From Vampirovibrionales bacterium (lineage in GTDB: Bacteria > Cyanobacteriota > Vampirovibrionia > Vampirovibrionales > Vampirovibrionaceae): a DNA stretch of 64,000 bases. The notes below the pieces were generated by a model that was given only the letters and a program-made list of their open reading frames with translations, was not told where the DNA came from and made no database searches. Of this stretch, positions 3,455 to 34,033 are shown piece after piece; the stretch's first letter is position 1, and each line of letters begins with the position of its first letter. The position numbers were made by a program, and so were the translations under genes. Location of the stretch: the NCBI GenBank assembly GCA_039794365.1, contig JBDIVN010000007.1:44389-108388 (forward strand). The letters run 5' to 3'.

Positions 3455-3458
3455 CGGG

Positions 3459-10552: not shown

Positions 10553-10697
10553 AGAACTTTACCTCAACAGTTTGCTCACTAACCGATTTCCGCAGGAAGA
10601 CACCTGCCTCTGCTAACACTCTACCGCGGAGAGGGCCGGAGCCGACTCATCCAGAATCAGGATATTTTCCCGCTGGCGGTCCCTGATCCGCGTCCTG

Positions 10698-11168: not shown

Positions 11169-11241
11169 AAACGCTTTCTCCCTGGGTTTTAAAAGGCGAG
11201 AGGGGGGACCCGTAAGCCCCCCACTCCCGAACAAATCCGAA

Positions 11242-12736: not shown

Positions 12737-13657
12737 TCAGGCCAGCTGATCGAGGGATGGCTGCCCCGCTTCGTTATAGGCACTGTCGAGTAACGAGGCA
12801 ATGAGCCGGGCGGCCTCGCTCATTCGACGCTCGGCAATGGGTTGCCAGCCGTCACGAAGAGCCTGCCGGTAGGCTTTCTCGTCCAGCTTCCGGTTCCGGG
12901 CATCCCGATCCACCGCCACGATGTCGAACAAGTGGCCATAACCCGCCGTCATGGTCTTCTTCAGCTCGCTCCTGAGGGTGTCCCGGTCCCGGACAGGTGG
13001 CTGGTATCCGTCGTTCTGGGCCTCCCGAATCTCAGCCCTGGCCCAGTCCTGAAGTTCTGACGGAAAAAACAGCCGGTTCTCGAAAAAGGCGTGGCTGTTC
13101 TTGTAAGAGATGGGCAGATGCCAGTTGTAATAGAGGGTCACATGCATGGGTTGGGCGAGATCACCGGCGTAATGAACCAGCCGCCCGATGGCCCCCTCAA
13201 TGGCGGCCTCCTTCTGCGCTCTGGCCCTCTTGCCCATCTGCCTGCCCCCGCTCAGGGACTTCAGCAGCCGGACCAGATCCTCGTAATTCTTCAGGACGGA
13301 CTGGTAGACGTTTTCCGGTTTGCCGCAACAGCCGTCGTCCACCTGGTCCACATGGCGCTCGAACTCGGCCTGGCGCTTTTTCCGCTGAGCGGGCCGGAAC
13401 ACGTCCGCCACCTTGCTGAACTGCCGATCCTTGACCGGCAATTTTTTCGGCAGGTTGTTCTGCCAGTAGTGTTCCGCGTTGAGGAAATGGCCTCTGCCGG
13501 AAAATTGCTTATCCTGCAGGTCGGCGATATCCTGGATTTCCGCCCGGTTCCCATCCACAAAAGCCGCCAGAGGCCCGGCCTGCATCATGCCCCAGGCCGC
13601 GTCATTGATGGCCGCATGGCCACGCAAGGACCATCCGAACCGAACTGTCCCAACCAC
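12737..13657 (-). CDS. S1/P1 nuclease / zinc-dependent phospholipase C superfamily protein
   Basis: Conserved HYAGDLAQPMH motif (the Zn-ligand HxxGDxxQPxH block of P1 nuclease/PLC) plus an N-terminal W..GH block. No obvious signal peptide from the annotated ATG. Confidence 0.6.
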   Translation of the reverse strand: MVGTVRFGWSLRGHAAINDAAWGMMQAGPLAAFVDGNRAEIQDIADLQDKQFSGRGHFLNAEHYWQNNLPKKLPVKDRQFSKVADVFRPAQRKKRQAEFERHVDQVDDGCCGKPENVYQSVLKNYEDLVRLLKSLSGGRQMGKRARAQKEAAIEGAIGRLVHYAGDLAQPMHVTLYYNWHLPISYKNSHAFFENRLFFPSELQDWARAEIREAQNDGYQPPVRDRDTLRSELKKTMTAGYGHLFDIVAVDRDARNRKLDEKAYRQALRDGWQPIAERRMSEAARLIASLLDSAYNEAGQPSLDQLA

Positions 13658-13813
13658 GTCTGTCTTTCCCCCGGTTTTTATTAGATTGTATTATAACATA
13701 AACAATCATTAATCATGCCGGGGATCAAAAAGACAGGCTAAAGAAACCGGTCCTTTGGCCGAATGTATAATAGAATGTCTGATTGGAATGAGACGGCACT
13801 TAAGGATGGGATA

Positions 13814-15421
13814 ATGGCAATTCGGAAAAGTGACAGAGGCGCCACGATCTGGGAATACGCGCTGGGGGTTGGCCTGGTGGCCGGTGCGCTCATTGGCGTG
13901 GCCGCATTCATCCTCCCCAGCGCCCTGAACATCTCATTCGTCAACACGGTCAATGCCACCACGGATAACAACCAGGTCATTGCCCAGTCCTTCGGCACCC
14001 CCACCGACCCCTTCGCCGCCATTGCCGGCTTCCAGAACGAAAACGTCAAGACCATCGTAAGCCAGATGTCCATTGCATGCATCGATACGAGCCAGGTGTG
14101 CTTCCCCTCATTTTCCGAGAACGCCCTGAACGACGAGGACACCCTCGGCGGTCTGGGGGAAACTTCCGGCGGCCTGGGGCAGCAGCAATACCTGGATATG
14201 GCTACCAACTACATCATGACGGCCATCAAGGACATTCTAGGCAAGAAAAACGTCCCCGAATCCCTTAAGGAGAAGTTTCGTGAACTGGCGAACCTCTCCC
14301 AGGAGATGGCCTCAGCCCAGCAACAGCTGGCAGACGCCCTGCGCCGCGGAGACAGCGCACGGGCACGGCAACTGGTCCAGCGAATCAACGGGGGCAGCCA
14401 GGTCTACATCTCGGACAAATGCCTGCCGTCGGCCATTTGCATCGAAGCCGGCGACGGCCTCTTCTACAATATCATTCCCGCCAATGATCCCCTTTCCCTC
14501 ACCGGACAGATTGCCCTGGTCCGGCAGGAAATCGCGGCGGACGAAAATATCGGACAGATCCCCAGTGCCTCTCGCGCCCTGGATACCGTCTTCAGCGCCC
14601 TTGAGGATCGCTCCCGGCGGATTGCCGTCCTGATGGAGGGAGATCCGCCCATTGTAAAAAGATACAGCGAAGTGGACATCCAGGATTTTATCGCCACCCT
14701 GACCACCAACGTGTCCTATCTCAACAGCCTGGTTTCCAGCATGAACCAGGAGAAAAACGCCCGCACCGCCACGGAGGAACTGGCCAAGAGCCTGTACAAG
14801 AACGACAACTACATGGGCTACAGCAACGAGCAGGTGGATTTGACCGTCACCCACCTGATCGAGAAGATCCAGAAAACCCTGCTGGCCGATGAGGCCTTTG
14901 CCCGAAGCCTGATCCGCGGCACCCCGGACATAAAGGAAGCCACCCGGCTGGCCATGAGCGCTTTTGGTGAATTTTTTGCCGAAAACTCCGGGGAAAGCCG
15001 GGAAATCGCCACCAAACTGCGTGATGACGTCCTCAGTGACTCCGAAGCGGGAACCCGCCTCATACAGGCCGCCCTGGAAAACGCCGTTGCCGCACGGACC
15101 ATGGACAGACTGCTGGCCACCATCACCGATACCGCCGAGGACGGTGCCCGGAATCAGGATCTCTACAAATCGGTGGTGGGCATCCTCGCAAAAAATCCGG
15201 AGATCATCTCCGGCCTGCAGGAAATGGCCACCTCCAAACGGATCGATCCCTCCCGCGTGGAGGCCACCTCCCGGTTTCTGGCCGGACAGATCAGCGAAAG
15301 CGCCCGCGAAAGCGAGGCCACGCAGTTGCTGGAAAACAACGCCCGGCATATGCTGAAAGCGGCGGAAATCAGCTGCTCGGCAGGGCGCGGAGAGTTCAGC
15401 AGTGGAAAATGCCTGGGCTAG
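13814..15421 (+). CDS. large Flp/TadE-type prepilin-like protein with ~500-aa helical C-terminal domain (TadG-like minor pilin candidate)
   Basis: Start chosen at MAIRKSDRG/ATIWEYALGVGLVAGALIGVAAFI (AAGGA RBS 9 nt upstream). This is a class III Flp/Tad signal with the G/XXXXEY cleavage motif and a hydrophobic helix, followed by a long Ala/Leu/Glu/Arg-rich region with no vWA motif. Confidence 0.6.
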   Translation: MAIRKSDRGATIWEYALGVGLVAGALIGVAAFILPSALNISFVNTVNATTDNNQVIAQSFGTPTDPFAAIAGFQNENVKTIVSQMSIACIDTSQVCFPSFSENALNDEDTLGGLGETSGGLGQQQYLDMATNYIMTAIKDILGKKNVPESLKEKFRELANLSQEMASAQQQLADALRRGDSARARQLVQRINGGSQVYISDKCLPSAICIEAGDGLFYNIIPANDPLSLTGQIALVRQEIAADENIGQIPSASRALDTVFSALEDRSRRIAVLMEGDPPIVKRYSEVDIQDFIATLTTNVSYLNSLVSSMNQEKNARTATEELAKSLYKNDNYMGYSNEQVDLTVTHLIEKIQKTLLADEAFARSLIRGTPDIKEATRLAMSAFGEFFAENSGESREIATKLRDDVLSDSEAGTRLIQAALENAVAARTMDRLLATITDTAEDGARNQDLYKSVVGILAKNPEIISGLQEMATSKRIDPSRVEATSRFLAGQISESARESEATQLLENNARHMLKAAEISCSAGRGEFSSGKCLG

Positions 15422-17873: not shown

Positions 17874-18620
17874 ATGCGCACAGCAAACCCGGCCCTGAGT
17901 GAAAAGGCGTTCCGCTCCCCGGCCCGGACCGGCGAAGGGACCATGACCGTCCAGGGTGCCGTCAACAAAACCGCCATCCTCCTGGCCCTCGCCTTTGCCA
18001 CCGCCATGATCAGCTGGAACATGGTGCTGGCCAACCCGGCGATCTTTCCGTTGCTGATGTGGGGCGGACTCATCGGCGGGTTCATCCTCGCCATGATCAC
18101 CGCCTTCAAACGGGACTGGGCGCCGGCCACCGCCCCGGCCTACGCCCTGGTGGAGGGCGTTTTTCTCGGCAGCATTTCCGTCGCGTTCGAACATTACATG
18201 GGCGATGGCATGGCCGGGATCGTCTTTCAGGCCGTTATTCTCACCTTTGGAACACTGGCTGCCCTACTTCTGGCTTATAGTAGCGGGATGATTAAGGTCA
18301 CCGAGAAGTTTCGGATGGGGGTTTTCGCCGCCACCGGCGCCATCCTGCTCGTCTATATCGTCAATTTCGTGATGAGCTTCTTCGGCATGAACGTGCCCTT
18401 CCTTCATGACACCGGTCCCATCGGGATTGGCATCAGCGTGGTCATTGTCATCGTCGCCGCCCTGAACCTGGTGCTGGACTTCGACTTTTTCGAGCAGGGG
18501 GCACGCCAGGGGGCACCCAAACATATGGAGTGGTACGCCGCCTTCGGACTCATGGTCACCCTGGTCTGGCTCTACCTGGAAATGCTGCGCCTGCTGTACA
18601 AGATTCGCAGCAATCGCTAG
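17874..18620 (+). CDS. Bax inhibitor-1/YccA family membrane protein
   Basis: Seven predicted hydrophobic helices, about 220-aa core and the family's charged C-terminus. Start may be the internal MTVQGAVNKTAILLAL (17943). Confidence 0.55.
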   Translation: MRTANPALSEKAFRSPARTGEGTMTVQGAVNKTAILLALAFATAMISWNMVLANPAIFPLLMWGGLIGGFILAMITAFKRDWAPATAPAYALVEGVFLGSISVAFEHYMGDGMAGIVFQAVILTFGTLAALLLAYSSGMIKVTEKFRMGVFAATGAILLVYIVNFVMSFFGMNVPFLHDTGPIGIGISVVIVIVAALNLVLDFDFFEQGARQGAPKHMEWYAAFGLMVTLVWLYLEMLRLLYKIRSNR

Positions 18621-20221
18621 CGCCCGGAGGAAACGGCGAAGCGGTAGTCCACCGGACCCGGTGGGCGATCCGTTGACTGGGGGCGCGGATTCTGCGGAAC
18701 GGCGCTTTCGGGGGTCCGGGTTTCCAGCGCCTTGATTTTCGCCTTCGCCTTTCTGACCCGTTCGCGGCTGGCGGCATCCTTGTCGTCGCGGGCCAGTTCG
18801 ATGAACCGGTTGAGGGAAGCCACGGCCCGCCGGGGTTCATTGAGATCCGCGTAGATCATCCCCAGGTTGAACTGGATGTTGGCATCCCCGCCCGCCAGCA
18901 GCTCAGCCGCCCGGTAGAGGGTGAGGGCCTCCTGCTGCCGGTTGTCCTCACTCAGCAAACCGGCGTAGTTGATAAGCACATCCGGTTTCAAAGCCCGCAG
19001 ATACGCTTCCGCGGCCCTGATATCATCACCTTCGCGGTGATAGGCATAGCCGAGCGCCTTAAAGGCAGCCAGGTCGTCGGGGTTGGCCAGGATCAGCCGA
19101 CGCAGCTCCACGGCTGCCGAGGCGGGGCGGTTGCGTTTCAGCTCCACAATGGCAAGGCGGTAGTGGGCCAGCAGATGATCCGGGTTCCCGGAAAGCACCG
19201 AAATATAGGTTTTCAATGCCTCGTCCGCCTCCCCCCGCGCTTCCTGGAGCAGTCCGCGGGCGTAGAGGAGTTCGGGATTCTCCGGAAACTCCCGCATTGC
19301 CTGGCGCAACAACTCATCGGTTTCAGGAAAGTTCCCCTCTGACAGGTTCAGCCGGATCAACTCCAGCCACGCGGGCAGGAAGCGCAGGTGCTCCTCGGTG
19401 ACTTTCTGCAGGGCCAGGGTGGCCCGCTGTGTTTCTCCCGAAGCCAGATGCACCAGCCCCAACAGATAACGGCCCACCGGATCATGAGGCTGGCTCCCCA
19501 GCCAAGTTTCCAGGGTCATGCGGGCACTGTCCAAGCGTCCGCCCCGGTAAGCATCCCAAGCCTGGAGGATCTCCGCCGAGAAACCGCTCGATTGACCCGC
19601 CTCCAGGGCATAGATGGAGAAATCCGGTGCCGGTGTCCGCAGCGGGCTAGCCACTTTTGTCACGCCGGGGAAGCCCGCGTCCGATGCCAATGTTTTCGCC
19701 GGGTTTTTCGTCGGATCTTCCAGGGTCACCACGGACAGGGGTTCCGGCTTTTTCACGACCGCCGGCTGTCCCCGGCTAGCACCCACCAATGCAATGCTGA
19801 CCCGGCTTCCCGTGTTGGCACGCACCTGGGGGCGCAGCCGCTTGCTCACCTCCAGAACGATCCGGATGGCATTCTGACCGTCCTTGTGCTGCATCAGGTT
19901 CACCGAGCGCACCTCCCGAATGGTATCAGCCAGGGTCCGGCTGAGCGCGGGGATATTCTCCTGCAAGGCATCGTCAAACCGGACGCCTTCCCCTTCGATG
20001 ACAATACGGAACGTGCCTTTATCCCCTTCTTCCACCCACAAGACCGGATCAAAGACGCCCCCGGAAACTTCCAGCAGAATATCCGTCGTCCCCGGCTCCA
20101 CGGTGATGCCCACAATACGGGCAACGGCAGCGTCAACCTTCTCTCCGGCAAGCACCATCACCGCCAAAAGAACCAGCAGCCCGCCGGTCAGCCCGTTCCG
20201 AAAGCGCCGGAGACTCCCCAT
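18617..20221 (-). CDS. AMIN-domain plus TPR-repeat periplasmic protein
   Basis: Signal peptide (LLVLLAVMVLAG), N-terminal AMIN-like beta domain (IRIVLEV...VSIALVG), Pro/Lys linker, then multiple TPR-like repeats. It starts 4 nt after the stop of the upstream giant gene (operon). Confidence 0.7.
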   Translation of the reverse strand: MGSLRRFRNGLTGGLLVLLAVMVLAGEKVDAAVARIVGITVEPGTTDILLEVSGGVFDPVLWVEEGDKGTFRIVIEGEGVRFDDALQENIPALSRTLADTIREVRSVNLMQHKDGQNAIRIVLEVSKRLRPQVRANTGSRVSIALVGASRGQPAVVKKPEPLSVVTLEDPTKNPAKTLASDAGFPGVTKVASPLRTPAPDFSIYALEAGQSSGFSAEILQAWDAYRGGRLDSARMTLETWLGSQPHDPVGRYLLGLVHLASGETQRATLALQKVTEEHLRFLPAWLELIRLNLSEGNFPETDELLRQAMREFPENPELLYARGLLQEARGEADEALKTYISVLSGNPDHLLAHYRLAIVELKRNRPASAAVELRRLILANPDDLAAFKALGYAYHREGDDIRAAEAYLRALKPDVLINYAGLLSEDNRQQEALTLYRAAELLAGGDANIQFNLGMIYADLNEPRRAVASLNRFIELARDDKDAASRERVRKAKAKIKALETRTPESAVPQNPRPQSTDRPPGPVDYRFAVSSGR

Positions 20222-20225
20222 GACG

Positions 20226-23200
20226 CTATACCCCGCTCTTGAGCTTCTCGACATACTTTCGCACCACATCCGCATTGCTGGCGTTCGGCGAGAGGCTCAG
20301 AAACCGCTCCAGGTGGACGATGGCGTTGGACTTGTCTCCCATCTTGGAGTATATAAGACCCAGGTTGTAGTGGGCCGGACCGAAGTTGGGCCGGATGGAA
20401 AGGGCCTGCTGATAGGCATTCCTGGCTTTCTGCAAATCGTTGGTGGCGTTGTACAGGTTGCCCAGGTTGAAGAGCAGATCGCTGTCATTGGGGTTCAGGG
20501 AGAGGGCTGTCAGGAAGATGCGCTCCGACTCGTCCATACGCCCCAGCTTCTTCAGGGTGGTGGCGTAGTTGTTCAGCACGCTGACGGGAATAGCCATCGC
20601 AAAGGCTTGTTGGGCCTCTTCAAGACGTCCGCTGAGGAGATAGGCCTTCCCCAGAAGGTTATAGCCCTCCAACTCGTAGGGGTTGTTGGTGAGGAAGAGT
20701 TCGAGAATCCGGGTGGCTTCCGCCGGATTGCCGGTCTTGAGCAACCCGTCGGCATACGCCGTCACGTAGCGGGTCACGTCGGACTCCAGCTTGTAGGCGT
20801 CGCGGTACAGCACCGTGGCTTCCACGATCTTGCCGTTGTCCTCCAGCTCTTTTCCGCGGATATAGAACTCTTCGGCACGAGGGTTGGCGCTGGTGGTAGG
20901 CTGGCGCTGCTGCAACCGGCGAAGGGCCTCTTCCAGGGAGGCATTTTTCGCCGCCGCCTGCCGAAGCTCCTCGTTGAGCCGGGCAATCTGGGCATCATTG
21001 CCGCTGGAGCCGCCGGCCTGCGCACGGGCCTGGGAGAGTTGCTGCTGGAGGGTATCGATCTGGGAGCGTGAATCCTGGTAACGGCGGTTGGCTTCCGCCA
21101 GTTCGGACTGCAGACTGGCCAGGCGGCCCTGTTCACCGTCCAGTTGCTGCCGCAGGGCAATGTATTCCGGCGACTGCGTCACGGGCGTATCGTTTGCCGG
21201 ACGGGATTCCAGACTCGCAATCCGTTGCTTCAGGGTGTCATTCTCCCGCAGGGCGGCCTGGTAATTGCGGTTGGCCTCCTCAAGCTGCTGCTCCAGCCGG
21301 GCCAGTTGGGACTGGTAGCCGGTCAGGCGGCTTTCCTGACTGGCCAGTTGCTGCTGCAAAGCGATGTACTCCGGCGACTCCTCCACCGGCGTCTGTTGGG
21401 TCGAATCCGCCTGAAGACCCGCCACCTGCTGCTTCAATGCCTCGTTGCGGGCCACCGCCACTTTATAATTCTCGGCGGTCTCCCGCAATTCCTCGCGCAG
21501 GCGGGAAAGCTGACCCTGCTGATCCTCGAGCTGCCGTTGCAGGGCGATGTACTCCGGCGACTCCTCCACCGGTATCTGTTGGGTCGAATCCGCCTGAAGA
21601 CCCGCCACCTGCTGCTTCAATGCCTCGTTGCGGGCCACCGCCACTTTATAATTCTCGGCGGTCTCCCGCAATTCCTCGCGCAGGCGGGAAAGCTGACCCT
21701 GCTGATCCTCGAGCTGCCGTTGCAGGGCGACGTATTGGGGCGACCCCTCCACCGGCGCCTGTTGGGTCGAATCCGCCTGAAGACCCGCCACCTGCTGCTT
21801 CAATGCCTCATTTTGGGCTGTCGCCATCTTATAATTGCGGGTGGTCGTCTGCAACTCATCCCGCAGGCGGGAGATTTCCTCCTGCTGGCTTGAAAGCTGC
21901 GTTTGCAGGGCAACGTATTCAGGCATCTGCTCCACCGGTGGCCGGTAGGTGCTTTCCGCCTGCAGGGCGGCCACCTGGGACTTCAACACCTGGTTCTGGC
22001 GCTGCACGTCTTCCAGATTACGGATACGGCCCTGCAAATCACCCAGCTGCTTTTCGTATTCAACCAGTCGTGACTTCTGGGCCTGGGTTTGTTCCTGTAA
22101 AGCAAGATACCGGGGAGACTGCTCCACCGGCGTTGGCTTGACCGAAGCCTGGGACTGCATGGCCTTGAGTTCCGCCTGCAAGGCCTCCTTTTCCCGGATC
22201 GCATTCTCATAGTCCCGGCTCAGGGCCAGATACTTGGGATTCTGCTCCAGCGGCGGCGGCGGGATAATCCCATGGGTTCGCGCCGCGCTGAGATCCGCCT
22301 TCAGCTGATCCGCCTCGTTGACCTTGGCGAGATACTTGCGGCTCAGTTCGCCCATCTGCTCCTGAATCTTCTGAGCTTCGGAGATCGCGCCCTGCCGGTC
22401 GGCACGGGCCTGTTGAAGATCACTTCGGACCGAGTCGAGCTGGTCCTGAAGCGCTTTCCTGTCCGTCTCCACGGCATTCAGGGCCGCCTGAACCTCATTC
22501 ACCTTTGCCTGCAGGGTCCGGACCTGATCGCTCTGGGTGGCGCGGGCCTGCTGAAGCTCCTGGCTGGCCTGTTGAAGTGCTTCGCGGGTCTGCCCGAGTT
22601 TTACCTCCATATCGGATTTCTCGGCGCTCAGAGTGTTTTTCTCTTTCTCCGCGGCATTCAGGGTCGACTGAAGCTCCTCCACTTTTGCCTGCAGGGTCCG
22701 AACCTGATCGCTCTGGGTGGCGCGGGCCTGCTGAAGTTCCTGGCTCGCCTGCTGCAACTTCGCCTGCAAATCGGATTTTTCAGTACTCAGGGCCGTCAGG
22801 GAATCCCGCAGGCTTTTGACCTTTTCCTCGGTCGGCCGCTCCGCCAGGGCCTCTTTTAACTGGCTGTTCTCGGAGCGGGCGGTCAGCAGGGCCTCCTCCA
22901 TAGCGTTTTTCGCCTTATGGAGAGCCTCCAGTTGCTCATTCATCGCCGCCAGCGCCCGTTTCAGCCGGGTCAGCTGCTCCTCTCCCTCCTGGCCGTCAGC
23001 CAGCTGCTTGCGCAGGGTATCCACAGACATCCGAAGGCCGGAGTTCTCGGCAGACAGGTTCTTGAGCGCATCCTCCCGCTGGGCCAGACGGGCTTCCGTC
23101 TCCTCCAGCTTCTGGCTTAGCGCCGCCACCTGTTGCCTGGCCGCTGCATCCATCCCCTGACGCACCTCGTTGAGCTGCTCGGTCAACGCGGCGATTTCCT

Positions 23201-25085
23201 TGTTCTGACGGTTGATGGTCTCTACAGACTGGGCCAGGGATTGACGGGCCTTTTCCACCTCGGCCTTCAGGGCATTCAGCCGATCCGGCGGTACGTGGGC
23301 CGACCGGAGCTGGCGATTTTCCGACTCCAGTTCGCCGTACTTGCGGTTAAGCACCGCCAGCGCCTTTTTCATATCCTCGAAGGAGAAGGGGGGCTTCTCG
23401 GCCAGCGCCCGTTCCAGCTGGCTGCGCAAATCCGCATTGGTCCGTTCCAGCAATTGGACCCGCTCCCGGTAGGATGCACTGTCCTGTTGCAGAGCCTGGT
23501 ACTGGGCATTGAGTTCATTATAGCGGCCGGCCAGCGCAGAAGACTGGTCTTGCTGACTGCGCAGGGACTGGACAGCCCGTTCTCCCTCAGCCGCCTGGCT
23601 GCGGGCCTGGGCAAGCTCCCGCTGGAGATCCTGGTTCCGACGCGTCAGGGCGGTCACTTCCTGTTTCAGTCCGTCCAGTTCGGACGGACTCGACGCCTGG
23701 GCACGAAGCTGGGCGAGCTGCTGCTCCAGCTGCTTGTAACGATGGCTCACCTCGGCCAGTTGCTCCTGCAGGGTCCTGACCTGCTGCTGACTGGCGCTGT
23801 AATTCGCGTGAAGGCGACTCAGGCGCTCCTGAAGTCCGGGGTCCTGCTGTTGCTGAGCCTGACGCTGGGCGCTGGCCAGTTCCGCCATCCGGGCCTGAAG
23901 ATCCTGGACCAGCTGCTGGCTGGAACTGTAGCGGTCGGCCAGTTCCTGGTAGCGGCGCTGCAATTCCTCGTACCGGCGCTTCAACTCATCGGACTGCCCA
24001 TCGGGCCGCCCGGAGGCATCCTGGCGAATCTGGCCGAGTTCCCGCTGGCTACTCTGGTAACGCGTCTCAACATCCGCCAGCTGGGATTTCAGGTCCCGGA
24101 TAACGGTTTCCTGCCGGGCGAGACGACTCGCCAGATCTCCGGACTGGCCTTGCTGTTCCATAAGCTGGCGGTAACGGGCCTTGAGTCGCTCATAATCATC
24201 CTTGAGGCCGGACACATCGCCCTGCTGGCTCATCAGGATCTGGTTTCGCTCGGCCAGCTGGGACACCTGAGCCTGAAGCTCCTGCACCCGGCGCTGGCTC
24301 TGCTGGTATTCGCTGCTCAAGGCCGAATAACGCGACTCCGCATCGGAGAGACGGGATCGAGCCTGGGTGGCCTGCTCGTAGCGGCTGTTGACGTCCTGCA
24401 ACTGAAGCTGCAGGCTGCGGACCTGCTCCCGCAAGCTCTCCACCTGAAGCAGCTTGTCCCCCACCTGCCCCAACCGGACACGCAGATCGTCAAGCTCGCG
24501 CTTCTGCTGTTCAATGGTATTAAGGGCACGCTGGTACTCCAGCGGACTCACGTTGCCAGGCTCCCGATGCGGCTCAGGCGTCAGGGGGCGCAGCTCGTTC
24601 CGGAGAACCGGCGGATCGGCAGCAACGGGACGGGCCGCACTGACCGGCTCCACCCGCAACTCAAGGGAACCCCCCGCCCCCTCCACCAGACGGGCATTAT
24701 AGCTGTCTCCGACCAGGTCGATGAGTATCCGGACAACAGGGCGTGCCCCGCCAAACTGGTTGATGGAGACGTTCTGGACGGCAGACCACTGGGACTGGAG
24801 CCTGGAGAGCAACTCCCCCTCGCGTGGCAGGGCCAGCCCCACACCGGCATTTTCGATATCAAGGATCAGGCGTTTGTTTCCGTTGACCGTCGTGGCGTTG
24901 AACGACGACCTCACTGGACCGGAACTGGACACGGTAAAGCTTTGACGCAGCGGATTGTACTGGATGCCCTCAACCACGCCCTCGGCGGACCAGGCCAGGG
25001 TGGGGGCAAACATGGTCTCAAACAGGAATATGGAACCCCCAACCAAAGTCAGGGCAACAGTATGGAACTGCTTCTTAACTCTCAT
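20226..25085 (-). CDS. giant (1619 aa) secreted AMIN-domain / repetitive coiled-coil / C-terminal TPR protein
   Basis: Signal peptide MRVKKQFHTVALTLVGGSIFLFETMFAPTLAWSA. AMIN-like domain (RLILDIEN...VVRILIDLVGDSY). About 1,200 aa of heptad-rich Gln/Leu/Glu/Arg/Ala sequence, including roughly 8 copies of a 60-aa repeat (PVE.SPEY[IV]ALQ.QL...LKQQVAGLQADSTQQ). C-terminal TPR repeats. No TM segment after the signal peptide. Confidence 0.8.
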   Translation of the reverse strand: MRVKKQFHTVALTLVGGSIFLFETMFAPTLAWSAEGVVEGIQYNPLRQSFTVSSSGPVRSSFNATTVNGNKRLILDIENAGVGLALPREGELLSRLQSQWSAVQNVSINQFGGARPVVRILIDLVGDSYNARLVEGAGGSLELRVEPVSAARPVAADPPVLRNELRPLTPEPHREPGNVSPLEYQRALNTIEQQKRELDDLRVRLGQVGDKLLQVESLREQVRSLQLQLQDVNSRYEQATQARSRLSDAESRYSALSSEYQQSQRRVQELQAQVSQLAERNQILMSQQGDVSGLKDDYERLKARYRQLMEQQGQSGDLASRLARQETVIRDLKSQLADVETRYQSSQRELGQIRQDASGRPDGQSDELKRRYEELQRRYQELADRYSSSQQLVQDLQARMAELASAQRQAQQQQDPGLQERLSRLHANYSASQQQVRTLQEQLAEVSHRYKQLEQQLAQLRAQASSPSELDGLKQEVTALTRRNQDLQRELAQARSQAAEGERAVQSLRSQQDQSSALAGRYNELNAQYQALQQDSASYRERVQLLERTNADLRSQLERALAEKPPFSFEDMKKALAVLNRKYGELESENRQLRSAHVPPDRLNALKAEVEKARQSLAQSVETINRQNKEIAALTEQLNEVRQGMDAAARQQVAALSQKLEETEARLAQREDALKNLSAENSGLRMSVDTLRKQLADGQEGEEQLTRLKRALAAMNEQLEALHKAKNAMEEALLTARSENSQLKEALAERPTEEKVKSLRDSLTALSTEKSDLQAKLQQASQELQQARATQSDQVRTLQAKVEELQSTLNAAEKEKNTLSAEKSDMEVKLGQTREALQQASQELQQARATQSDQVRTLQAKVNEVQAALNAVETDRKALQDQLDSVRSDLQQARADRQGAISEAQKIQEQMGELSRKYLAKVNEADQLKADLSAARTHGIIPPPPLEQNPKYLALSRDYENAIREKEALQAELKAMQSQASVKPTPVEQSPRYLALQEQTQAQKSRLVEYEKQLGDLQGRIRNLEDVQRQNQVLKSQVAALQAESTYRPPVEQMPEYVALQTQLSSQQEEISRLRDELQTTTRNYKMATAQNEALKQQVAGLQADSTQQAPVEGSPQYVALQRQLEDQQGQLSRLREELRETAENYKVAVARNEALKQQVAGLQADSTQQIPVEESPEYIALQRQLEDQQGQLSRLREELRETAENYKVAVARNEALKQQVAGLQADSTQQTPVEESPEYIALQQQLASQESRLTGYQSQLARLEQQLEEANRNYQAALRENDTLKQRIASLESRPANDTPVTQSPEYIALRQQLDGEQGRLASLQSELAEANRRYQDSRSQIDTLQQQLSQARAQAGGSSGNDAQIARLNEELRQAAAKNASLEEALRRLQQRQPTTSANPRAEEFYIRGKELEDNGKIVEATVLYRDAYKLESDVTRYVTAYADGLLKTGNPAEATRILELFLTNNPYELEGYNLLGKAYLLSGRLEEAQQAFAMAIPVSVLNNYATTLKKLGRMDESERIFLTALSLNPNDSDLLFNLGNLYNATNDLQKARNAYQQALSIRPNFGPAHYNLGLIYSKMGDKSNAIVHLERFLSLSPNASNADVVRKYVEKLKSGV
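21190..22270 (-). repeat. intragenic tandem repeat array, period ~180 nt (about 6 copies; two near-identical at ~21361-21720)
   Basis: Segments starting at about 21361 and 21541 are almost identical over 180 nt (ctccaccgg[c/t][g/a]tctgttgggtcgaatccgcctgaagacccgccacctgctgcttcaatgcctcgttgcgggccaccgccactttataattctcggcggtctcccgcaattcctcgcgcaggcgggaaagctgaccctgctgatcctcgagctgccgttgcagggc). Flanking copies are progressively diverged. They encode the 60-aa coiled-coil repeat. Confidence 0.7.
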
Positions 25086-25329
25086 TCGCTAGAAAAGACC
25101 CTTCCGGTCTGTACCCGATGAGCAGGGTGTCAACGCCTGTGTCCAAGATACTCTACAAGCAAAAGTATACCACGCCCTTCCCGTTTGGGGGTCAACCGAT
25201 CACCACGGATATTCCAAATTTTCATTAAGCGCCCATCCCCATAAACAACGGCAGCGTTTCAAAACCGGAAATAATCCCCGGATCTGCTGGGATACCGGGG
25301 ATGGAAGATTCCTGGATCGCCGTGAAAGG

Positions 25330-26448
25330 CTAGGCCAGTTTCAGGGCTGGCCCTGACGGCAGCGGGATCGTTTTCCCGGACAGGGCCTCTTCGGCCAGTC
25401 GCTTGAGATCCGGGTTGGGCTTGTTGAAGAAGTTGAACCAGCCTTTGCCCGCCGCATTTTTCAGAACCTTTTTCATTTCCTTGTCGTCCTGGCGGTTGAT
25501 CACCTGCCACGCCTGGATGGCGGCAGCACGGACGTCCGGGTTCTCGTTCTTGTCCTGGACCACCTGCTTGATCACATCCAGGCCGGGAAGATTCTTGGTG
25601 GGCACACTGGCATTCTGGGAGGCATTCAGCATACCCAGGGTCCAGAGGGCCGCCTGGCGGACGTAATTGGCATCATCCTTGGCCTGTCCCTGCAAATGGC
25701 TGGTGTCGGCCAGGGCCTCACGCTTCAGAAGATCGTAGGTTTGGGCGGTTCCATAACCCCGAACACCGATCTCCTCCATCGCATCCACCCGCTCCTGCAG
25801 GGTGGAGGGTTGGTCAATCAGAGCGTTGAGCTGCTCTACATCCGCCGTCTTCAGGCCGGGCTGCTGGGGTTGCTGCGGCGGCTGAGGCTGCTGCGGATAC
25901 TGATCCACGGGCGGCTGGGGCTGCTGTGGGTATTGATCCTGCGGGTACTGGGGATACTGGGCATACGGGTCAGGGTACTGTCCCGGATACTGCGGATATT
26001 GCCCAGGATACGGGTAGGCCCACGGATTGGGCTGAGCCTGGAACGGACTCGGATAAGGCTGTTGCTGTTGATAGAAGGGAATCTGCTGCTGGAAAGCGGT
26101 CGCGTTCATCTGGTTCGCCAGGTTCAAATAGGAATTTCTCGCCTGTTCAGCCAGATTCTTGGCATTCAGCGCCTCGGCATACGCATTCTGAAGCGCCTGC
26201 TGCGGGTTCATCGACGGGAACATGTTGTTGTAGTTCGCCGGATAGGCCGCAGGGGCGGAACTGGCCGGGGCGCCATAAACGGAAGCCGGCGGCGCGGCAG
26301 CGGGGCCGTAAGGCGATGCATAGGGCGACGGAGCCGCAGCAGGACCAATCTGGCCAGGGACGGCGCCGCCCGGAAAGTTCTTCGGCTCGATGATCTGGAT
26401 ATTCACCGCCGACGAAGTTTGAGGTAATTGAGGATAAGCTGTGACCAT
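25330..26448 (-). CDS. Pro/Gln/Tyr-rich low-complexity protein with C-terminal HEAT-like repeats
   Basis: N-terminal ~200 aa dominated by QYPQYPGQYP / QPQPPQQPQQ repeats and AAPxxYG motifs. C-terminal ~150 aa has HEAT/PBS-lyase-like helical repeats (YVRQAALWTLG, DVRAAAIQAW). First gene of the AMIN/TPR cluster. Confidence 0.55.
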   Translation of the reverse strand: MVTAYPQLPQTSSAVNIQIIEPKNFPGGAVPGQIGPAAAPSPYASPYGPAAAPPASVYGAPASSAPAAYPANYNNMFPSMNPQQALQNAYAEALNAKNLAEQARNSYLNLANQMNATAFQQQIPFYQQQQPYPSPFQAQPNPWAYPYPGQYPQYPGQYPDPYAQYPQYPQDQYPQQPQPPVDQYPQQPQPPQQPQQPGLKTADVEQLNALIDQPSTLQERVDAMEEIGVRGYGTAQTYDLLKREALADTSHLQGQAKDDANYVRQAALWTLGMLNASQNASVPTKNLPGLDVIKQVVQDKNENPDVRAAAIQAWQVINRQDDKEMKKVLKNAAGKGWFNFFNKPNPDLKRLAEEALSGKTIPLPSGPALKLA

Positions 26449-27543: not shown

Positions 27544-28701
27544 TTGATGAGCACCGCCAAACGCGACTATTACGAAATCCTCGGCGTACAGCGCAACGCC
27601 ACCGCGGAGGAAATCAAGAAGGCTTTCCGCCGCAAGGCGAAGGAATATCACCCGGACGTGAACAAGAGTCCGGACGCCGAAGGACTGTTCAAGGAACTCG
27701 GCGAAGCCTTCGACGTGCTCAGCGACGACCAGAAACGACAGGTCTACGACACCTACGGCCATGATGGCCTGCGTTCCGGCGGCTACCAGACCAACTGGGA
27801 CTTCATGCAGGGCTTTCCGGATCTCAACGATCTGTTCGCCTCCTTCTTTGGCGGCGATTTCGGCTTTGCCGCCAGCCGGCGCCAAGGCCCCCACCAGGGG
27901 GACGACCTGCGTTTCGATATCGAACTCGACTTCATGGAAGCGGTTTTTGGCGCGAAGAAAGAGGTGGAAATCCAACGCCTGAACCGGTGTGCTCCTTGCA
28001 GCGGCACCGGCTCAACGCCGGGGTCAGGTGCCAGCATCTGCCAGACCTGTGGCGGCGGCGGCCAGATCCGTCAGACCACCCAGACCATCATCGGCCACTT
28101 CACCCAGATCACGGTCTGCCCGCGCTGCCAGGGGCAAGGACAGGTGATTACGGACCCTTGCAAGGACTGTCACGGCCAAGGCCGGCTCCAGGGCGCCAAA
28201 AAGCTCACCATCAACATTCCTGCCGGTGTGGACCGGGGCACCCGGCTCCGGGTGGCCGGCGAGGGCAACGCCGGGTATCTGGGAGGCCCCAACGGGGACC
28301 TCTACGTGGTGGTCAACGTCAAGCCCCATCCGGTATTTAACCGGGAAGCGTACAACCTGATGTCCGTCCAGAACGTCCCCTACTCCATGATGGTTCTGGG
28401 CGGCGAGGTGGAGGTGCCGGTTCTGGAAGGTACGTCCCGGATCAAAATCCCGGCAGGCACCCAGAACGGCCACGTTTTTACCCTGAAACAGCAGGGGGTT
28501 CCCCACCTGAACAATCCCAGCCGACGCGGCGATCATTTCATCCAGGTGCAGGTCAACATTCCCACCCGCCTCAGCGGCGAGGAAAAAAAGCTGCTGGAGC
28601 GTCTCAACGAGATCGATCGGGAAAAACAGCGCCAGGAAGACCGCCATGCGGCCTCGACGCTGTTCGACCGGTTCAAGGACGCCCTCTCCGGGAGTGCCTA
28701 A
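27544..28701 (+). CDS. dnaJ: molecular chaperone DnaJ
   Basis: J domain (DYYEILGV...HPD), G/F region and four CxxCxGxG zinc-finger repeats, with C-terminal domains. Confidence 0.95.
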
Positions 28702-28709
28702 GTTAGCTG

Positions 28710-29402
28710 ATGGGTAGGTTCAAATGCCGTTTTGCTGTAGGAAGCCCAACAGGCTTACGGTCAGGGGCGTTCACAGTTTGGACAAGCAGGAATGATATTT
28801 ATATTGCGGGCCGTAATATCGGCGGCTCTATGAAAACTAGTCTGCACGAGTCAGGCAAACGCCACAGTGGTTTAACTAGCACATTTTTTCAAGAGCCTGG
28901 AACTTTGGAAATGTGGGGCCTTGCCAATAGACATGCTGATGAATGGATAGGGGGTTATCAAATTAGCGAAACTACAACTTTGGAATTTGCCATAGCATTT
29001 CCAAAGTCTGATCTTCGGCTTTTCAGCGACCCAAAACTCAATCCAAACAAAATCAAATGGCTACCTGAACCTCCCCAAGGCTGTCATCTTGAAGTAGCTT
29101 TGTTGATAGAAACTGAGCCTTCAGATACAGAAGAGTGGCCTGGAAAAACTATAATGGGGACTCAATTCTTAGACAGCTATGTTTTGCCCGATGGGAGGAT
29201 CCTATGGCTCGTGTATCATTCGATCCCAGAATCGCCCACTCCCAAATCTATACACGAGGAACTTAAACTCGTCATTAAAAAATCTATGCAAGCAAACCCC
29301 AACATGCAATTTACGGGCGGACACAGACTAATTGTGGGCCAAATAAGCGATGACGGAGTCAGGTGCTACGTTGACCTTGCAGCGGATAGATATAATAACT
29401 AA
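28710..29402 (+). CDS. orphan hypothetical protein encoded in a low-GC insertion
   Basis: 230-aa ORF (possible start at MKTSLHESG, ~28830) in a ~0.7 kb segment markedly AT-richer than its flanks. No recognisable motif. Confidence 0.4.
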   Translation: MGRFKCRFAVGSPTGLRSGAFTVWTSRNDIYIAGRNIGGSMKTSLHESGKRHSGLTSTFFQEPGTLEMWGLANRHADEWIGGYQISETTTLEFAIAFPKSDLRLFSDPKLNPNKIKWLPEPPQGCHLEVALLIETEPSDTEEWPGKTIMGTQFLDSYVLPDGRILWLVYHSIPESPTPKSIHEELKLVIKKSMQANPNMQFTGGHRLIVGQISDDGVRCYVDLAADRYNN

Positions 29403-29419
29403 CCGCTTCGGGAAATTTT

Positions 29420-30190
29420 CTACTCGGCGGGCAGGTTGAAAGCGCCGCCGAAGTCGATGTTCACCGTATCGCCCGGCTCAATGGTGGCAGACTCACCCTT
29501 GCCCACGAGGGCCATCACGCTTTTCCCCGCCGTCACCGCGGTTCCCGCAAAAACTCCGCCCACCACGGCAGCCGGCACCGTGACGATCTTGCCCGCCCCC
29601 CCGGCAAGGTCCTCGCCCGCCTGGGAACCGGCATCCTTGAAACGGCCCAGGGTATTCACGCCACTCTCAAAACTCTTGTGGATCTTGTACCCGACACCGG
29701 GATCGTCGTAAAGGGCAAACTCCGCCTCGCGGGTTCCCGGCCTTCTCACCCGCCTGACGGCATCGTTTTTGGCGGAGAGGTCCAGATCCAGCGGCATGAG
29801 ATCGCCGGTGGGCAGCACCACGTGGTCAAAGGTCAGCAGGATGGTTCCGCCCCGGCTGAAGAGGCCGGGCTTTTTCACGGCATCCACCCGTCCCCGGACC
29901 AGGGTGCCCCGCGGCAGGATCACCCGCGAATCCCCGTCCAGGCCGGGGGCCTTGAAGTCCTGCTGGATAAATGCGGTAAAAGGCTCCCCTTCCGTGGAAA
30001 TACGCGAATCCAGCTCCGAGTTGAACCGGACCGTCAGCATGGTCCCCGCCGGCACCTTCTGGGACCGGGTGTCCAGTTTCAACGACGTGGTCGGCAGGGC
30101 ATCCTGGCCCCAACCCGGTGTAATCCCCGCCAGGAGACACACTGCCACCGATGCAATCATCAAACGCCGTCCAGGGTTCCACATGCGCAT
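29420..30190 (-). CDS. secreted hypothetical protein (signal peptide)
   Basis: N-terminus MRMWNPGRRLMIASVAVCLLAGITPGWG is signal-peptide-like. Mature protein is beta-rich and Gly/Val-rich with no known motif. Confidence 0.5.
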   Translation of the reverse strand: MRMWNPGRRLMIASVAVCLLAGITPGWGQDALPTTSLKLDTRSQKVPAGTMLTVRFNSELDSRISTEGEPFTAFIQQDFKAPGLDGDSRVILPRGTLVRGRVDAVKKPGLFSRGGTILLTFDHVVLPTGDLMPLDLDLSAKNDAVRRVRRPGTREAEFALYDDPGVGYKIHKSFESGVNTLGRFKDAGSQAGEDLAGGAGKIVTVPAAVVGGVFAGTAVTAGKSVMALVGKGESATIEPGDTVNIDFGGAFNLPAE

Positions 30191-30235
30191 TATCCTCTCA
30201 ACTCGTATCTCTCTTATTGTACAGGACAATTCCGC

Positions 30236-31963: not shown

Positions 31964-32115
31964 TTAATTCTGTACCGAAAACGGCGGCTACTTTATTAAT
32001 TTACCACCAGATTCGCTTGGGGACGAGCCTGTTTCTGCGTATCTCCTTCGAATACGGGAGAAACCCGGCCTTCTGCAACTGAGAATCCTCAAAGGAAAAT
32101 CCGCCGGGGATTTGA

Positions 32116-33621
<1,506 letters not shown>

Positions 33622-33625
33622 CACC

Positions 33626-34027: not shown

Positions 34028-34033
34028 ATAGAG

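What the first reader, a model, noticed from the sequence alone, without database searches (positions are those of the whole stretch)
18617..26448. Three-gene cluster encoding a 1619-aa periplasmic AMIN-anchored giant coiled-coil/TPR protein with partner proteins
Three co-directional minus-strand genes have 4-nt and 244-nt spacers. Gene 1 (26448-25330) is a Pro/Gln/Tyr-rich disordered protein with HEAT-like repeats. Gene 2 (25085-20226) has a signal peptide, an AMIN domain, about 1,200 aa of uninterrupted heptad-rich coiled coil built from a ~60-aa repeat, C-terminal TPRs and no membrane anchor. Gene 3 (20221-18617) has a signal peptide, an AMIN domain and TPRs. AMIN domains are the peptidoglycan/septum-targeting modules of PilQ and AmiC. 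A fully extended 1,200-aa coiled coil would be far longer than the periplasm is wide. So this looks like a peptidoglycan-anchored periplasmic filament or scaffold (periskeletal element, polar landmark or ruler) rather than an enzyme. I cannot map it to a described system. FimV/HubP share the peptidoglycan-binding plus acidic repeats plus TPR logic, but use LysM and a TM segment.
Basis: partly seen in the sequence, partly recalled or inferred. Interest (0 to 1): 0.8.

Follow-up and report, generated by a model that had tools for sequence, protein, structure and literature searches.

The report
Wall-anchored periplasmic coiled-coil scaffold genes
Three neighbouring genes of a Vampirovibrionales-like bacterium (a non-photosynthetic relative of cyanobacteria) encode an undescribed but conserved family of exported proteins. 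Each has a cell-wall-targeting AMIN domain and a TPR docking domain, joined in the largest protein by a very long, length-variable coiled-coil rod, so they probably form a structural scaffold between the two membranes rather than an enzyme.

Summary

One detail is wrong. The rod is not uninterrupted, and it is not built throughout from a 60-aa repeat. It has two long heptad segments, a family-conserved island (residues 562-675) and seven proline-punctuated units of 41-68 aa.

Gene 2 is not an orphan. An exhaustive HMMER scan found about 40 clusters with the same architecture, 529-1782 aa long. The block g1-[NAGPA glycosidase]-g2-g3 recurs in seven loci, including one where it is inverted relative to grpE-dnaJ. 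The only named relative is a Vampirovibrionales MAG. Genes 2 and 3 are tandem paralogues.

SMC, FimV/HubP, CpoB and TadD membership all fail. The best reading is an undescribed, peptidoglycan-tethered periplasmic scaffold. Its function is inferred, not shown. The variable rod length argues against a fixed ruler.

The parts
25330..26448 (-). g1: 372-aa protein with no signal peptide. It has a conserved N-terminal motif (MVTxYPxLPxTSSAVNIQI), a P/Q/Y-rich low-complexity region containing one conserved helix, and a C-terminal HEAT-repeat domain (residues ~200-370).
   Evidence: HEAT_2 at 32.1 bits, above the 27.7 cut-off; no hydrophobic segment; C-terminus 61-64% identical in L001/L009/L010/L011 and 31% in L014; composition.
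25086..25329 (-). g1-g2 spacer of 244 nt. In five related loci (four with DNA held, plus the contig carrying P0049) a NAGPA phosphodiester-glycosidase gene sits between g1 and g2; here it is absent. The spacer contains a CCCCGG...CCGGGG hairpin followed by a T-rich run, and a TTGACC...TATACT pair. Neither was flagged by the consensus scan.
   Evidence: tblastn of NAGPA against the window found nothing.
20226..25085 (-). g2: 1619-aa exported protein with the architecture AMIN - coiled-coil rod - TPR.
24987..25085 (-). g2 signal peptide (residues 1-33, predicted cleavage AWS|AE).
   Evidence: 42 of 44 family members (43 search hits plus g2) have an N-terminal hydrophobic 12-mer with KD of 1.8 or more, most of them followed by an A-x-A-type site, typically AWA|ADG. 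None has another TM-like segment.
24636..24986 (-). g2 AMIN domain (residues ~34-150).
23403..24530 (-). g2 rod segment 1 (residues ~186-561). It is heptad-rich and poorly conserved in sequence and length.
23061..23402 (-). g2 conserved island inside the rod (residues 562-675). It holds the motifs FSFEDMKKALAVLNRKY..EN and SVETINRQNKEI...D.AARQQ. It is present in essentially all family members and is a candidate interaction or oligomerisation site.
   Evidence: 52% identity to L001. Alignment occupancy about 1.0 with top-residue frequency up to 0.67. Motif hits across the family.
22263..23060 (-). g2 rod segment 2 (residues ~676-941). It is heptad-rich and includes a duplicated block of about 55 aa.
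20961..22262 (-). g2 proline-punctuated repeat region (residues 942-1375). It has seven units of 41-68 aa, each starting PVExSPEY[IV]AL. Three near-identical 61-aa units correspond to the 183-bp tandem repeat at 21361-21938.
   Evidence: motif found 7 times against 0.05 expected; the motif is confined to the closest subclade.
20229..20903 (-). g2 C-terminal TPR domain (residues ~1395-1619). It is the most conserved part of the protein and resembles consensus TPR.
   Evidence: (70-92% identity).
18617..20221 (-). g3: 534-aa exported AMIN-TPR protein. Signal peptide at residues 1-31 (20129-20221), AMIN at residues ~32-150 (19772-20128) and TPR at residues ~215-500 (18722-19579). It is a paralogue of g2 without the rod.
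   Evidence: hhalign of AMIN against AMIN gives probability 96.2%, E 2e-9. TPR against TPR gives 31% identity, E 1e-11, hhalign probability 99.2%.

Best explanation
g2 and g3 are tandem paralogues of an undescribed envelope protein family. Its only named carrier is a Vampirovibrionales genome.

Proposed mechanism, step by step:
1. Both proteins are exported by Sec and released into the periplasm. This is inferred from A-x-A signal peptides and the absence of a lipobox, a TM segment or a barrel.
2. Their N-terminal AMIN domains tether them to peptidoglycan. This is inferred from AmiC and PilQ, whose AMIN domains bind septal or polar peptidoglycan.
3. Their C-terminal TPR domains are protein-docking platforms.
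4. In g2 the two ends are separated by a helical rod of about 1,200 aa. If extended as a coiled coil, the two heptad segments would each be about 50 nm long. That exceeds the width of the periplasm, so the rod must lie along the wall or fold back.
5. The g2-g3 pair is therefore most likely a non-enzymatic, wall-anchored structural scaffold or tether. It would position partner proteins, or build a periplasmic 'periskeletal' layer, probably at septa or poles.
6. A conserved island inside the rod (residues 562-675) probably mediates oligomerisation or partner binding.
7. Rod length evolves quickly through repeat gain and loss, so the rod acts as a spacer or polymer rather than a precise ruler.
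8. g1 (IDR + HEAT, no signal peptide) and, in most relatives, an exported NAGPA glycosidase belong to the same conserved gene block. g1 is probably the cytoplasmic or regulatory member.

Shown here: gene structure, domains and folds, paralogy, family extent, and synteny.
Inferred: localisation, peptidoglycan binding, oligomerisation, and function.
For: - ORFs and spacers.
- Export signals and no other TM segment across 44 family members.
- AMIN by Pfam, above the cut-off for g2 and the L001 homologue.
- TPRs.
- Heptad periodicity above shuffles.
- Family of 36 clusters at E<=1e-10 (44 hits at E<=1e-3) with the same N-terminal domain position, and for most of them the same C-terminal TPR motif, in 1.84 billion representatives.
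- Conserved modules against a variable rod.
- g2-g3 adjacency in nine loci, and the g1-[NAGPA]-g2-g3 block in seven loci, including L014 where the block is inverted relative to grpE-dnaJ.
- g2/g3 paralogy.
- AMIN domains of PilQ bind septal and polar peptidoglycan and drive localisation: PMC10653833, PMC5285504.
- AMIN is found only in exported proteins and is predicted to be a localisation module: PMC2572700.
- A wall-glycan-type enzyme (NAGPA) sits in the block in most relatives.
Against: - There is no experimental or structural evidence for peptidoglycan binding, oligomerisation or filament formation in this family.
- The signal peptides were judged by hydropathy and the -3/-1 rule only, because SignalP was not available.
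- The AF2 models rest on alignments of only 2 and 4 sequences.
- g3's AMIN domain is 0.7 bits under the Pfam cut-off.
- g1 lacks an export signal, so a direct g1-g2 contact is unlikely unless g1 is exported in a non-classical way.
- The whole region (aspartokinase, atpD/atpC, dnaJ, grpE) is syntenic across these genomes. Part of the apparent co-conservation is therefore background synteny.
- One short, distant family member (L013) has no adjacent g3-like gene.
- The TPR domains resemble consensus TPR and say nothing about which partners they bind.
Confidence: 0.45

Rival explanations
1. A CpoB-like regulator rather than a structural element. AMIN would bring the protein to septal peptidoglycan, and the TPR domain would bind and modulate peptidoglycan synthases or outer-membrane constriction factors. 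This would coordinate wall synthesis with envelope invagination in a lineage where no tol-pal genes are seen next to the locus.
For: - E. coli CpoB is a periplasmic protein made of a trimeric coiled coil plus TPRs. It regulates PBP1B at the septum (PMC7391070). g2 has the same order, signal peptide then coil then TPR.
- AMIN targets septal peptidoglycan in AmiC and PilQ (PMC10653833).
- g3 gives a weak TIGR02795 (YbgF) hit over its TPRs.
Against: - The TIGR02795 score is 22.6 bits against a cut-off of 90.1 for g3, and there is no hit for g2.
- CpoB is 28 kDa, and a rod of 1,200 aa is not needed for such a role.
- No tol-pal or PBP genes lie in the window neighbourhood or in the related loci.
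- CpoB has no AMIN domain.
Confidence: 0.17
2. An accessory of a pilus or secretin machine. The TPR domains would act as a pilotin or alignment factor, like Tgl, PilF/PilW, TadD, TsaP or FimV, and AMIN would place the machine at the poles.
For: - AMIN is best known from PilQ.
- NCBIfam gives weak TPR-level hits to PilW, Tgl and GltE.
- JGI auto-named one family member 'Flp pilus assembly protein TadD'.
- A Tad/Flp pilus cluster lies at 2477-11342 in the window.
Against: - All these hits are far below their cut-offs, for example PilW at 40.7 against 154 bits.
- Pilotins are lipoproteins, and neither g2 nor g3 has a lipobox cysteine.
- The Tad cluster is about 7 kb away. It is not next to the locus in L001, L010, L011 or L014.
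- The Tad secretin here has no AMIN hit.
Confidence: 0.1
3. A cell-surface or extracellular fibre. The rod would be displayed outside the cell, for example as an adhesin or attachment structure of a predatory Vampirovibrio-type cell, with AMIN anchoring its base.
For: - Long, repeat-expanding, fast-evolving coiled-coil rods are typical of surface fibrils (established knowledge).
- Rod length and repeat number vary strongly between close relatives.
- Vampirovibrionales include epibiotic predators (established knowledge).
Against: - There is no outer-membrane translocation or sorting signal, no autotransporter or beta-barrel domain, and no C-terminal sorting domain. The C-terminus is a conserved TPR domain.
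- AMIN and TPR are periplasmic modules in all characterised cases (PMC2572700).
Confidence: 0.1
4. g2 is a cytoplasmic SMC/Rad50-like protein, or a FimV/HubP orthologue with a missed TM segment. These are the first reader's own refutation scenarios.
For: - NCBIfam lists ASRP, SMC and Rad50 at E 1e-35 to 1e-16.
- JGI named one family member 'chromosome segregation ATPase'.
- FimV and HubP share the general plan of a peptidoglycan-binding domain, a repetitive region and TPRs.
Against: - All these hits cover only coil segments and score 5- to 10-fold below their cut-offs (120 against 300, 104 against 567).
- There is no ATPase head and no hinge. The termini are AMIN and TPR.
- There is no LysM hit and no hydrophobic 19-mer beyond the signal peptide in any of 44 members.
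Confidence: 0.02

Closest known systems
AMIN-domain periplasmic proteins (AmiC amidase, PilQ secretin; Pfam PF11741)
   Same: - An N-terminal AMIN beta-sandwich directly follows a signal peptide.
- Pfam score above the cut-off for g2.
- By analogy, targeting to septal or polar peptidoglycan.
   Different: - No amidase or secretin domain follows the AMIN domain.
- The g2-type AMIN is a distinct subfamily. An exhaustive scan with its profile recovered only 44 proteins, not the generic AmiC and PilQ AMIN domains.
AMIN+TPR and AMIN+TolA-like coiled-coil architectures catalogued by de Souza et al. 2008 (PMC2572700, classes viii and ix)
   Same: - g3 has the AMIN+TPR architecture.
- g2 combines AMIN with a long charged helical region.
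   Different: - Those classes were reported from alpha- and delta-proteobacteria and firmicutes, and were never characterised.
- A combination of AMIN, a coil of up to about 1,400 aa and TPRs in one chain was not listed.
- The tandem-paralogue arrangement and the g1/NAGPA block were not listed either.
CpoB/YbgF (Tol-Pal-associated periplasmic coiled coil + TPR)
   Same: An exported protein with an N-terminal coiled coil followed by a C-terminal TPR domain, acting at the septal wall.
   Different: - CpoB is 28 kDa and has no AMIN domain.
- It sits in the tol-pal operon.
- The sequence model is not matched (22.6 against 90.1 bits for g3, nothing for g2).
CrvA/CrvB periskeletal polymer of Vibrio cholerae
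   Same: Exported, coiled-coil-rich, non-enzymatic proteins thought to assemble in the periplasm of a curved bacterium. Two paralogous genes act together (PMC8938487, PMC11369160).
   Different: - From memory, CrvA/CrvB are much shorter and have no AMIN or TPR domains.
- Polymer formation by g2 is untested.
FimV/HubP polar landmark proteins
   Same: The same general plan: a peptidoglycan-binding module, a long repetitive low-complexity or helical region, and TPR-like repeats.
   Different: - FimV and HubP use LysM and a TM helix, and much of the protein is cytoplasmic.
- g2 has AMIN, no LysM and no TM segment.
PflA/PflB periplasmic flagellar-motor scaffold of Campylobacterota
   Different: - There is no coil.
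- No flagellar genes lie nearby.

Membership tests
AMIN domain (PF11741) | Pfam HMM score at or above the gathering cut-off (20.5 bits) | tested here: met
   g2 isolated N-terminus scores 23.3 bits and the L001 homologue 21.5 bits. Full-length g2 scores 19.7 bits. g3 scores 19.8 bits, just below the cut-off, so this row is met for g2 only.
AMIN domain (PF11741) | AMIN beta-sandwich fold as in AmiC (4bin) and PilQ (4aqz, 3jc8) | tested here: met
   [not shown]
AMIN domain (PF11741) | N-terminal position in an exported protein | tested here: met
   The domain starts directly after the predicted signal peptide in g2, in g3 and in 42 of 44 family members.
AMIN domain (PF11741) | Binding to (septal) peptidoglycan | not testable with these tools
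   Needs sacculus pull-down and localisation experiments.
SMC/Rad50/ASRP | N- and C-terminal ABC-ATPase head halves plus a hinge or zinc hook; model score above the cut-off | tested here: not met
   Scores are 120 against 300, 104 against 567 and 75 against 700 bits, with matches only inside the coil. The termini are AMIN and TPR.
FimV/HubP | LysM peptidoglycan-binding domain | tested here: not met
   No LysM hit in Pfam at E<=0.1.
FimV/HubP | Single transmembrane helix separating periplasmic and cytoplasmic parts | tested here: not met
   No 19-mer with KD>=1.6 beyond residue 80 in g2 or in any of the 43 relatives.
CpoB/YbgF (TIGR02795) | Model score >=90.1 bits | tested here: not met
   g3 scores 22.6 bits; g2 is not listed.
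CpoB/YbgF (TIGR02795) | Periplasmic coiled coil followed by TPRs | tested here: met
   g2 has this order at the architecture level only.
CpoB/YbgF (TIGR02795) | Location in a tol-pal operon | tested here: not met
   The neighbours are grpE, dnaJ, a BaxI-family gene and HD-domain genes. No tol-pal genes occur in any locus examined.
Pilotin-type TPR lipoproteins (TadD, PilF/PilW, Tgl) | Lipobox cysteine and a model score above the cut-off | tested here: not met
   There is no cysteine at the cleavage sites of g2 and g3 in this window (AWS|AE, VDA|A). PilW scores 40.7 against 154 bits and Tgl 26-29 against 225 bits.
CrvA/CrvB periskeletal polymers | Sequence homology to CrvA or CrvB | not tested
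   No CrvA or CrvB sequence or model was available in the tools used. The resemblance is architectural only (PMC8938487).
CrvA/CrvB periskeletal polymers | Self-assembly into periplasmic filaments | not testable with these tools
   Needs in vitro polymerisation or cryo-ET.
New family: signal peptide-AMIN-coil-TPR (g2-type) | g2-type AMIN at residues ~25-165, a conserved rod island, and a C-terminal TPR with the FNLGNLY motif about 80 residues from the end | tested here: met
   36 clusters match at E<=1e-10. 31 of the 39 other members over 500 aa have the TPR motif, usually 78-84 residues from the C-terminus. The island is conserved in a 40-sequence alignment.

The most novel reading that the evidence does not exclude
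The g2-g3 pair builds a true periplasmic cytoskeleton ('periskeleton') in Vampirovibrionales-like bacteria. In this reading AMIN-anchored coiled-coil rods polymerise or cross-link through their TPR ends along the inner face of the wall. The PxY[ILV]xL repeats may serve as multivalent TPR ligands. The resulting structure would set cell curvature, mark the poles or mark a prey-attachment site. Its dimensions would be tuned over evolution by repeat expansion. g1 and the NAGPA glycosidase would act as cytoplasmic and wall-modifying partners.
Probability: 0.2. Interest if true: 0.8.

Novelty: new variant of a known kind. Interest (0 to 1): 0.55.

Why it matters
Very few non-enzymatic structural elements of the periplasm are known; examples are Lpp, CrvAB and the flagellar scaffolds. 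Almost nothing is known about envelope organisation in Vampirovibrionia, the non-photosynthetic sister group of the cyanobacteria.

This work defines a concrete, conserved gene block: a HEAT/IDR protein, usually a NAGPA glycosidase, an AMIN-coil-TPR giant, and an AMIN-TPR paralogue. It comes with clear domain boundaries, a conserved rod island, and natural length variants from about 530 to 1,780 aa. That makes several questions directly testable:
- whether AMIN can anchor a long coiled-coil polymer to the wall;
- what the TPR ends recruit;
- whether rod length matters.

It also shows how automatic names for this family, such as 'chromosome segregation ATPase' and 'TadD', mislead.

Tried and rejected
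- The word-indexed search with full-length g2 returned only g2 itself plus generic TPR proteins. Coiled-coil and TPR words swamped the candidate list, so g2 looked like an orphan.
- The same tool with the g2 N-terminus (residues 1-185) returned nothing, not even g2 itself. The exhaustive HMMER scan corrected the picture.
- PDB sequence searches with both AMIN regions gave only noise.
- SMC, Rad50, ASRP, tropomyosin, intermediate-filament and ATG16 hits were rejected as coiled-coil composition matches below their cut-offs.
- I tested whether the neighbouring NAGPA and the extra ~650-aa TPR proteins in related loci also start with AMIN domains. The family HMMs do not match them. Pfam gives only 18.4 bits for one NAGPA. 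No AMIN claim is made for them.
- A link to the Tad pilus cluster was rejected because the cluster is not syntenic with the locus in other genomes.
- The promoter and terminator scan found nothing on the minus strand.
- Rfam and tRNA scans of the window were empty.
- The genome-collection scan found only one species representative, and the metagenome scan added no new full-length homologue. These scans need exact peptide patterns, so they under-report.
- ATP synthase beta against the PDB did not resolve the taxonomy.
- The primary CrvA/CrvB papers are not in the held library.

Full report
1. Observation

- g1: 26448-25330, 372 aa.
- g2: 25085-20226, 1619 aa.
- g3: 20221-18617, 534 aa. An in-frame ATG at 20275 would add 18 residues, but the homologues support the shorter start.

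The spacers are 244 nt and 4 nt (TAG-CGTC-ATG). GC3 is 0.72-0.76, as in the neighbouring housekeeping genes, and all three proteins have homologues. They are real genes.

The cluster is bounded upstream by divergent grpE (26872+) and dnaJ (27544+). Downstream it meets a convergent BaxI-family gene (17874-18620+).

2. Anatomy

g1:
- No hydrophobic segment.
- A conserved N-terminal motif, MVTxYPxLPxTSSAVNIQI.
- A region of about 170 aa that is P 20%, Q 18%, A 15% and Y 10%. It contains one conserved helix.
- A C-terminal HEAT domain, HEAT_2 at 32.1 bits against a cut-off of 27.7.

g2 and g3 export signals:
- Each has one N-terminal hydrophobic segment followed by a signal-peptidase-I-type site (AWS|AE, VDA|A).
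- Neither has a lipobox cysteine or any other TM-like segment.
- Across 44 relatives of g2 (43 search hits plus g2), most cleavage sites are A-x-A-type, typically AWA|ADG. None has a second hydrophobic segment.

AMIN domains:
- Pfam AMIN is sub-threshold in full-length g2 (19.7 bits) but passes for the isolated N-terminus (23.3 bits). The L001 homologue scores 21.5 bits. The cut-off is 20.5.
- g3 scores 19.8 bits.
- AF2 models of both N-terminal domains have pLDDT 83.6 and 87.5. The alignments were shallow, with 2 and 4 sequences. Both models have the same strand-helix-strand topology.
- Profile-profile comparison shows the two domains are homologous to each other: probability 96.2%, E 2e-9.

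TPR domains:
- The C-terminal TPR domains of g2 and g3 align at 31% identity over 172 residues (E 1e-11; hhalign 99.2%).
- The alignment includes a shared irregular 'P..VL.NYA' segment.
- g2 and g3 therefore look like tandem paralogues. g3 is AMIN-TPR, and g2 is the same protein with a giant rod inserted.

The rod (residues ~186-1395):
- It is Q/L/A/E/R-rich.
- A heptad score beats composition-matched shuffles strongly in residues 200-550 and 600-940. It is weaker in 940-1400.
- It is not uninterrupted. Prolines break it at about 10 places.
- Residues 942-1375 consist of seven units of 41-68 aa, each opening with PVExSPEY[IV]AL.
- Three units are near-identical and correspond to a 183-bp tandem repeat at 21361-21938 with 87-91% matches.
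- A non-repetitive island at residues 562-675 is conserved across the family.

3. Relatives

The word-indexed protein search made g2 look like an orphan. The same tool found three full-length homologues of g3, at 62, 43 and 41% identity.

Their contigs show the same arrangement:
- L001 carries DnaJ-GrpE, divergent from a HEAT protein (360 aa), then a giant (1782 aa), a g3-like gene (554 aa), and a convergent BaxI gene.
- L003 and L004 carry truncated giants followed by g3 and BaxI.

L001 is titled 'MAG: Vampirovibrionales bacterium OFTM381'. The window's flanking proteins are 58-69% identical to those of L001 and 74-88% identical to those of L003. The window organism is therefore a relative.

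An exhaustive HMMER scan of 1.84 billion representatives used the g2 AMIN profile.
- It returned only 44 proteins at E<=1e-3, and 36 at E<=1e-10.
- Most of the 36 are 750-1,780 aa long and carry the domain at residues ~25-165.
- Most family members also have the C-terminal TPR motif FNLGNLY about 80 residues from the end, and many match the rod-island motifs.
- Lengths run from 529 to 1782 aa with a median of 958. The rod therefore varies from about 150 to about 1,400 aa.
- Only the AMIN domain, the island and the TPR domain are conserved.

Contexts of five more members show GrpE/DnaJ, a g1-like HEAT protein, a NAGPA (PF09992) glycosidase, sometimes an extra TPR protein, the giant, and a g3-like gene.

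In the most distant locus, L014, the block g1-like, NAGPA, giant, g3-like is intact. However, grpE-dnaJ now lies downstream in the same orientation. The block is therefore kept together beyond background synteny. NAGPA is missing from the window and from L001.

4. Mechanism

Shown here:
- exported-type signals;
- AMIN folds;
- TPR ends;
- heptad rods;
- paralogy of g2 and g3;
- a conserved island in the rod;
- rapid change in rod length;
- a conserved gene block.

Taken from the literature:
- AMIN domains occur only in exported proteins and were predicted to localise periplasmic complexes (PMC2572700).

Inferred:
- g2 and g3 are periplasmic and tethered to the wall through AMIN.
- They present TPR platforms.
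- At about 0.15 nm per residue in a coiled coil, each long heptad segment would be about 50 nm. That is longer than the periplasm is wide, so the rod must run along the wall or fold back.

I therefore favour a non-enzymatic, wall-anchored scaffold or tether, possibly a polymer, probably at septa or poles (confidence 0.45). The 10-fold natural variation in rod length argues against a precise ruler.

g1 lacks an export signal. It is probably a cytoplasmic or regulatory member of the block, so 'partner protein' is unproven for it.

5. Comparison with known systems

- SMC, Rad50 and ASRP hits are coiled-coil artefacts far below their cut-offs, and the termini are not ATPase heads.
- FimV and HubP require LysM and a TM helix. 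Both are absent.
- CpoB shares the order signal peptide, coil, TPR and a septal role (PMC7391070). However, its model is not matched, there is no tol-pal context, and CpoB is 28 kDa.
- Pilotins (TadD, PilW, Tgl) are lipoproteins, and their models are not matched. The Tad cluster at 2477-11342 is not syntenic with the locus elsewhere.
- CrvAB of Vibrio is the closest functional analogue: a periplasmic coiled-coil 'periskeletal' polymer encoded by two paralogues (PMC8938487, PMC11369160). Homology could not be tested.
- AMIN+TPR and AMIN+TolA-like architectures were listed in 2008 and never characterised (PMC2572700).
- NCBIfam has no model for the family. The source annotations 'TadD' and 'chromosome segregation ATPase' are generic.
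- No paper links Melainabacteria or Vampirovibrio with AMIN or coiled-coil envelope proteins.

6. Verdict

The description of the coiled coil needs correcting.
- The family is undescribed. It combines known modules in a new way (AMIN, a giant variable rod and TPRs) and comes with a paralogous AMIN-TPR partner and a conserved HEAT/NAGPA block. Its only named carrier is a Vampirovibrionales MAG.
- I rate it a new variant of a known kind, namely AMIN-targeted periplasmic proteins, with interest 0.55.
- The most novel reading still open is a true periplasmic cytoskeleton whose dimensions are tuned by repeat expansion (probability about 0.2).

Noticed in passing
window 2477-11342 (minus strand): A complete-looking Tad/Flp pilus cluster. 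It has two TadB/C-type T2SSF proteins, a CpaF/TadA ATPase, a CpaE/TadZ-like ParA protein with an N-terminal receiver domain, an RcpA/CpaC secretin, RcpC/CpaB and a TadE-like pseudopilin. It is not adjacent to the g1-g3 block in related genomes.
   Followed up: partly
window 25086-25329; L009 1817-3265, L010 8303-9766, L011 3678-5135, L014 6238-7794: In most related loci an exported NAGPA (phosphodiester glycosidase, PF09992) gene sits between g1 and g2. The window and L001 lack it and have only a 244-296-nt spacer. tblastn finds no remnant anywhere in the window. The gene was either lost or relocated in this subclade.
   Followed up: partly
window g2 residues 942-1311 (about 21150-22262); L003, L009 (P0047), L001, L004: The short motif P-x-Y-[ILV]-x-L at the start of helical units occurs 7 times in the window, at least 4 times in L003, 3 times in P0047 and once each in L001 and L004. 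It is absent from the 35 other family members, against about 0.05 expected per protein. It is a subclade-specific element that varies in copy number and could be a linear peptide ligand, for example for TPRs.
   Followed up: partly
window 26350-26448 (g1 N-terminus) and homologues in L001, L009, L010, L011, L014: The first ~30 residues of the HEAT/IDR protein (MVTxYPxLPxTSSAVNIQIIxPxNFPxGA) are conserved across all loci, although the following P/Q/Y-rich region is not. There is no signal-peptide character. The function of the motif is unknown.
   Followed up: no
window 12737-15421: Two ORFs with no Pfam or NCBIfam match (306 aa on the minus strand, 552 aa on the plus strand) lie between the thioredoxin-reductase-like gene and the HD-domain genes. 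In the closest relative, L003, those two flanking genes are directly adjacent. This about 2.7 kb therefore looks like a lineage-specific insertion.
   Followed up: no
window 28710-31963: Three further ORFs have no family match: 230 aa (plus strand), 269 aa with an N-terminal hydrophobic segment (minus strand), and 575 aa (minus strand). They lie between dnaJ and atpD. L010 has two unannotated genes in the same position.
   Followed up: no
window 27544-35855 compared with L010 1-5852: The order aspartokinase, small ORF, atpC, atpD, two orphan ORFs, dnaJ, grpE, g1 is conserved between the window and L010, where AtpD is 86% and DnaJ 64% identical. Background synteny in this clade is high and must be discounted when arguing for functional linkage.
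   Followed up: yes
tool behaviour: The word-indexed protein search missed every true homologue of g2. With the N-terminal 185 residues as the query it did not even recover the identical parent protein. The exhaustive scan found 44 relatives. Coiled-coil and TPR proteins can look like orphans in that index.
   Followed up: yes
L015 3311-4612: Next to a short family member (P0087) lies an SLH-domain protein. SLH domains are the outer-membrane-to-wall tether module typical of cyanobacteria-like diderms, which fits the envelope type inferred for these organisms.
   Followed up: no
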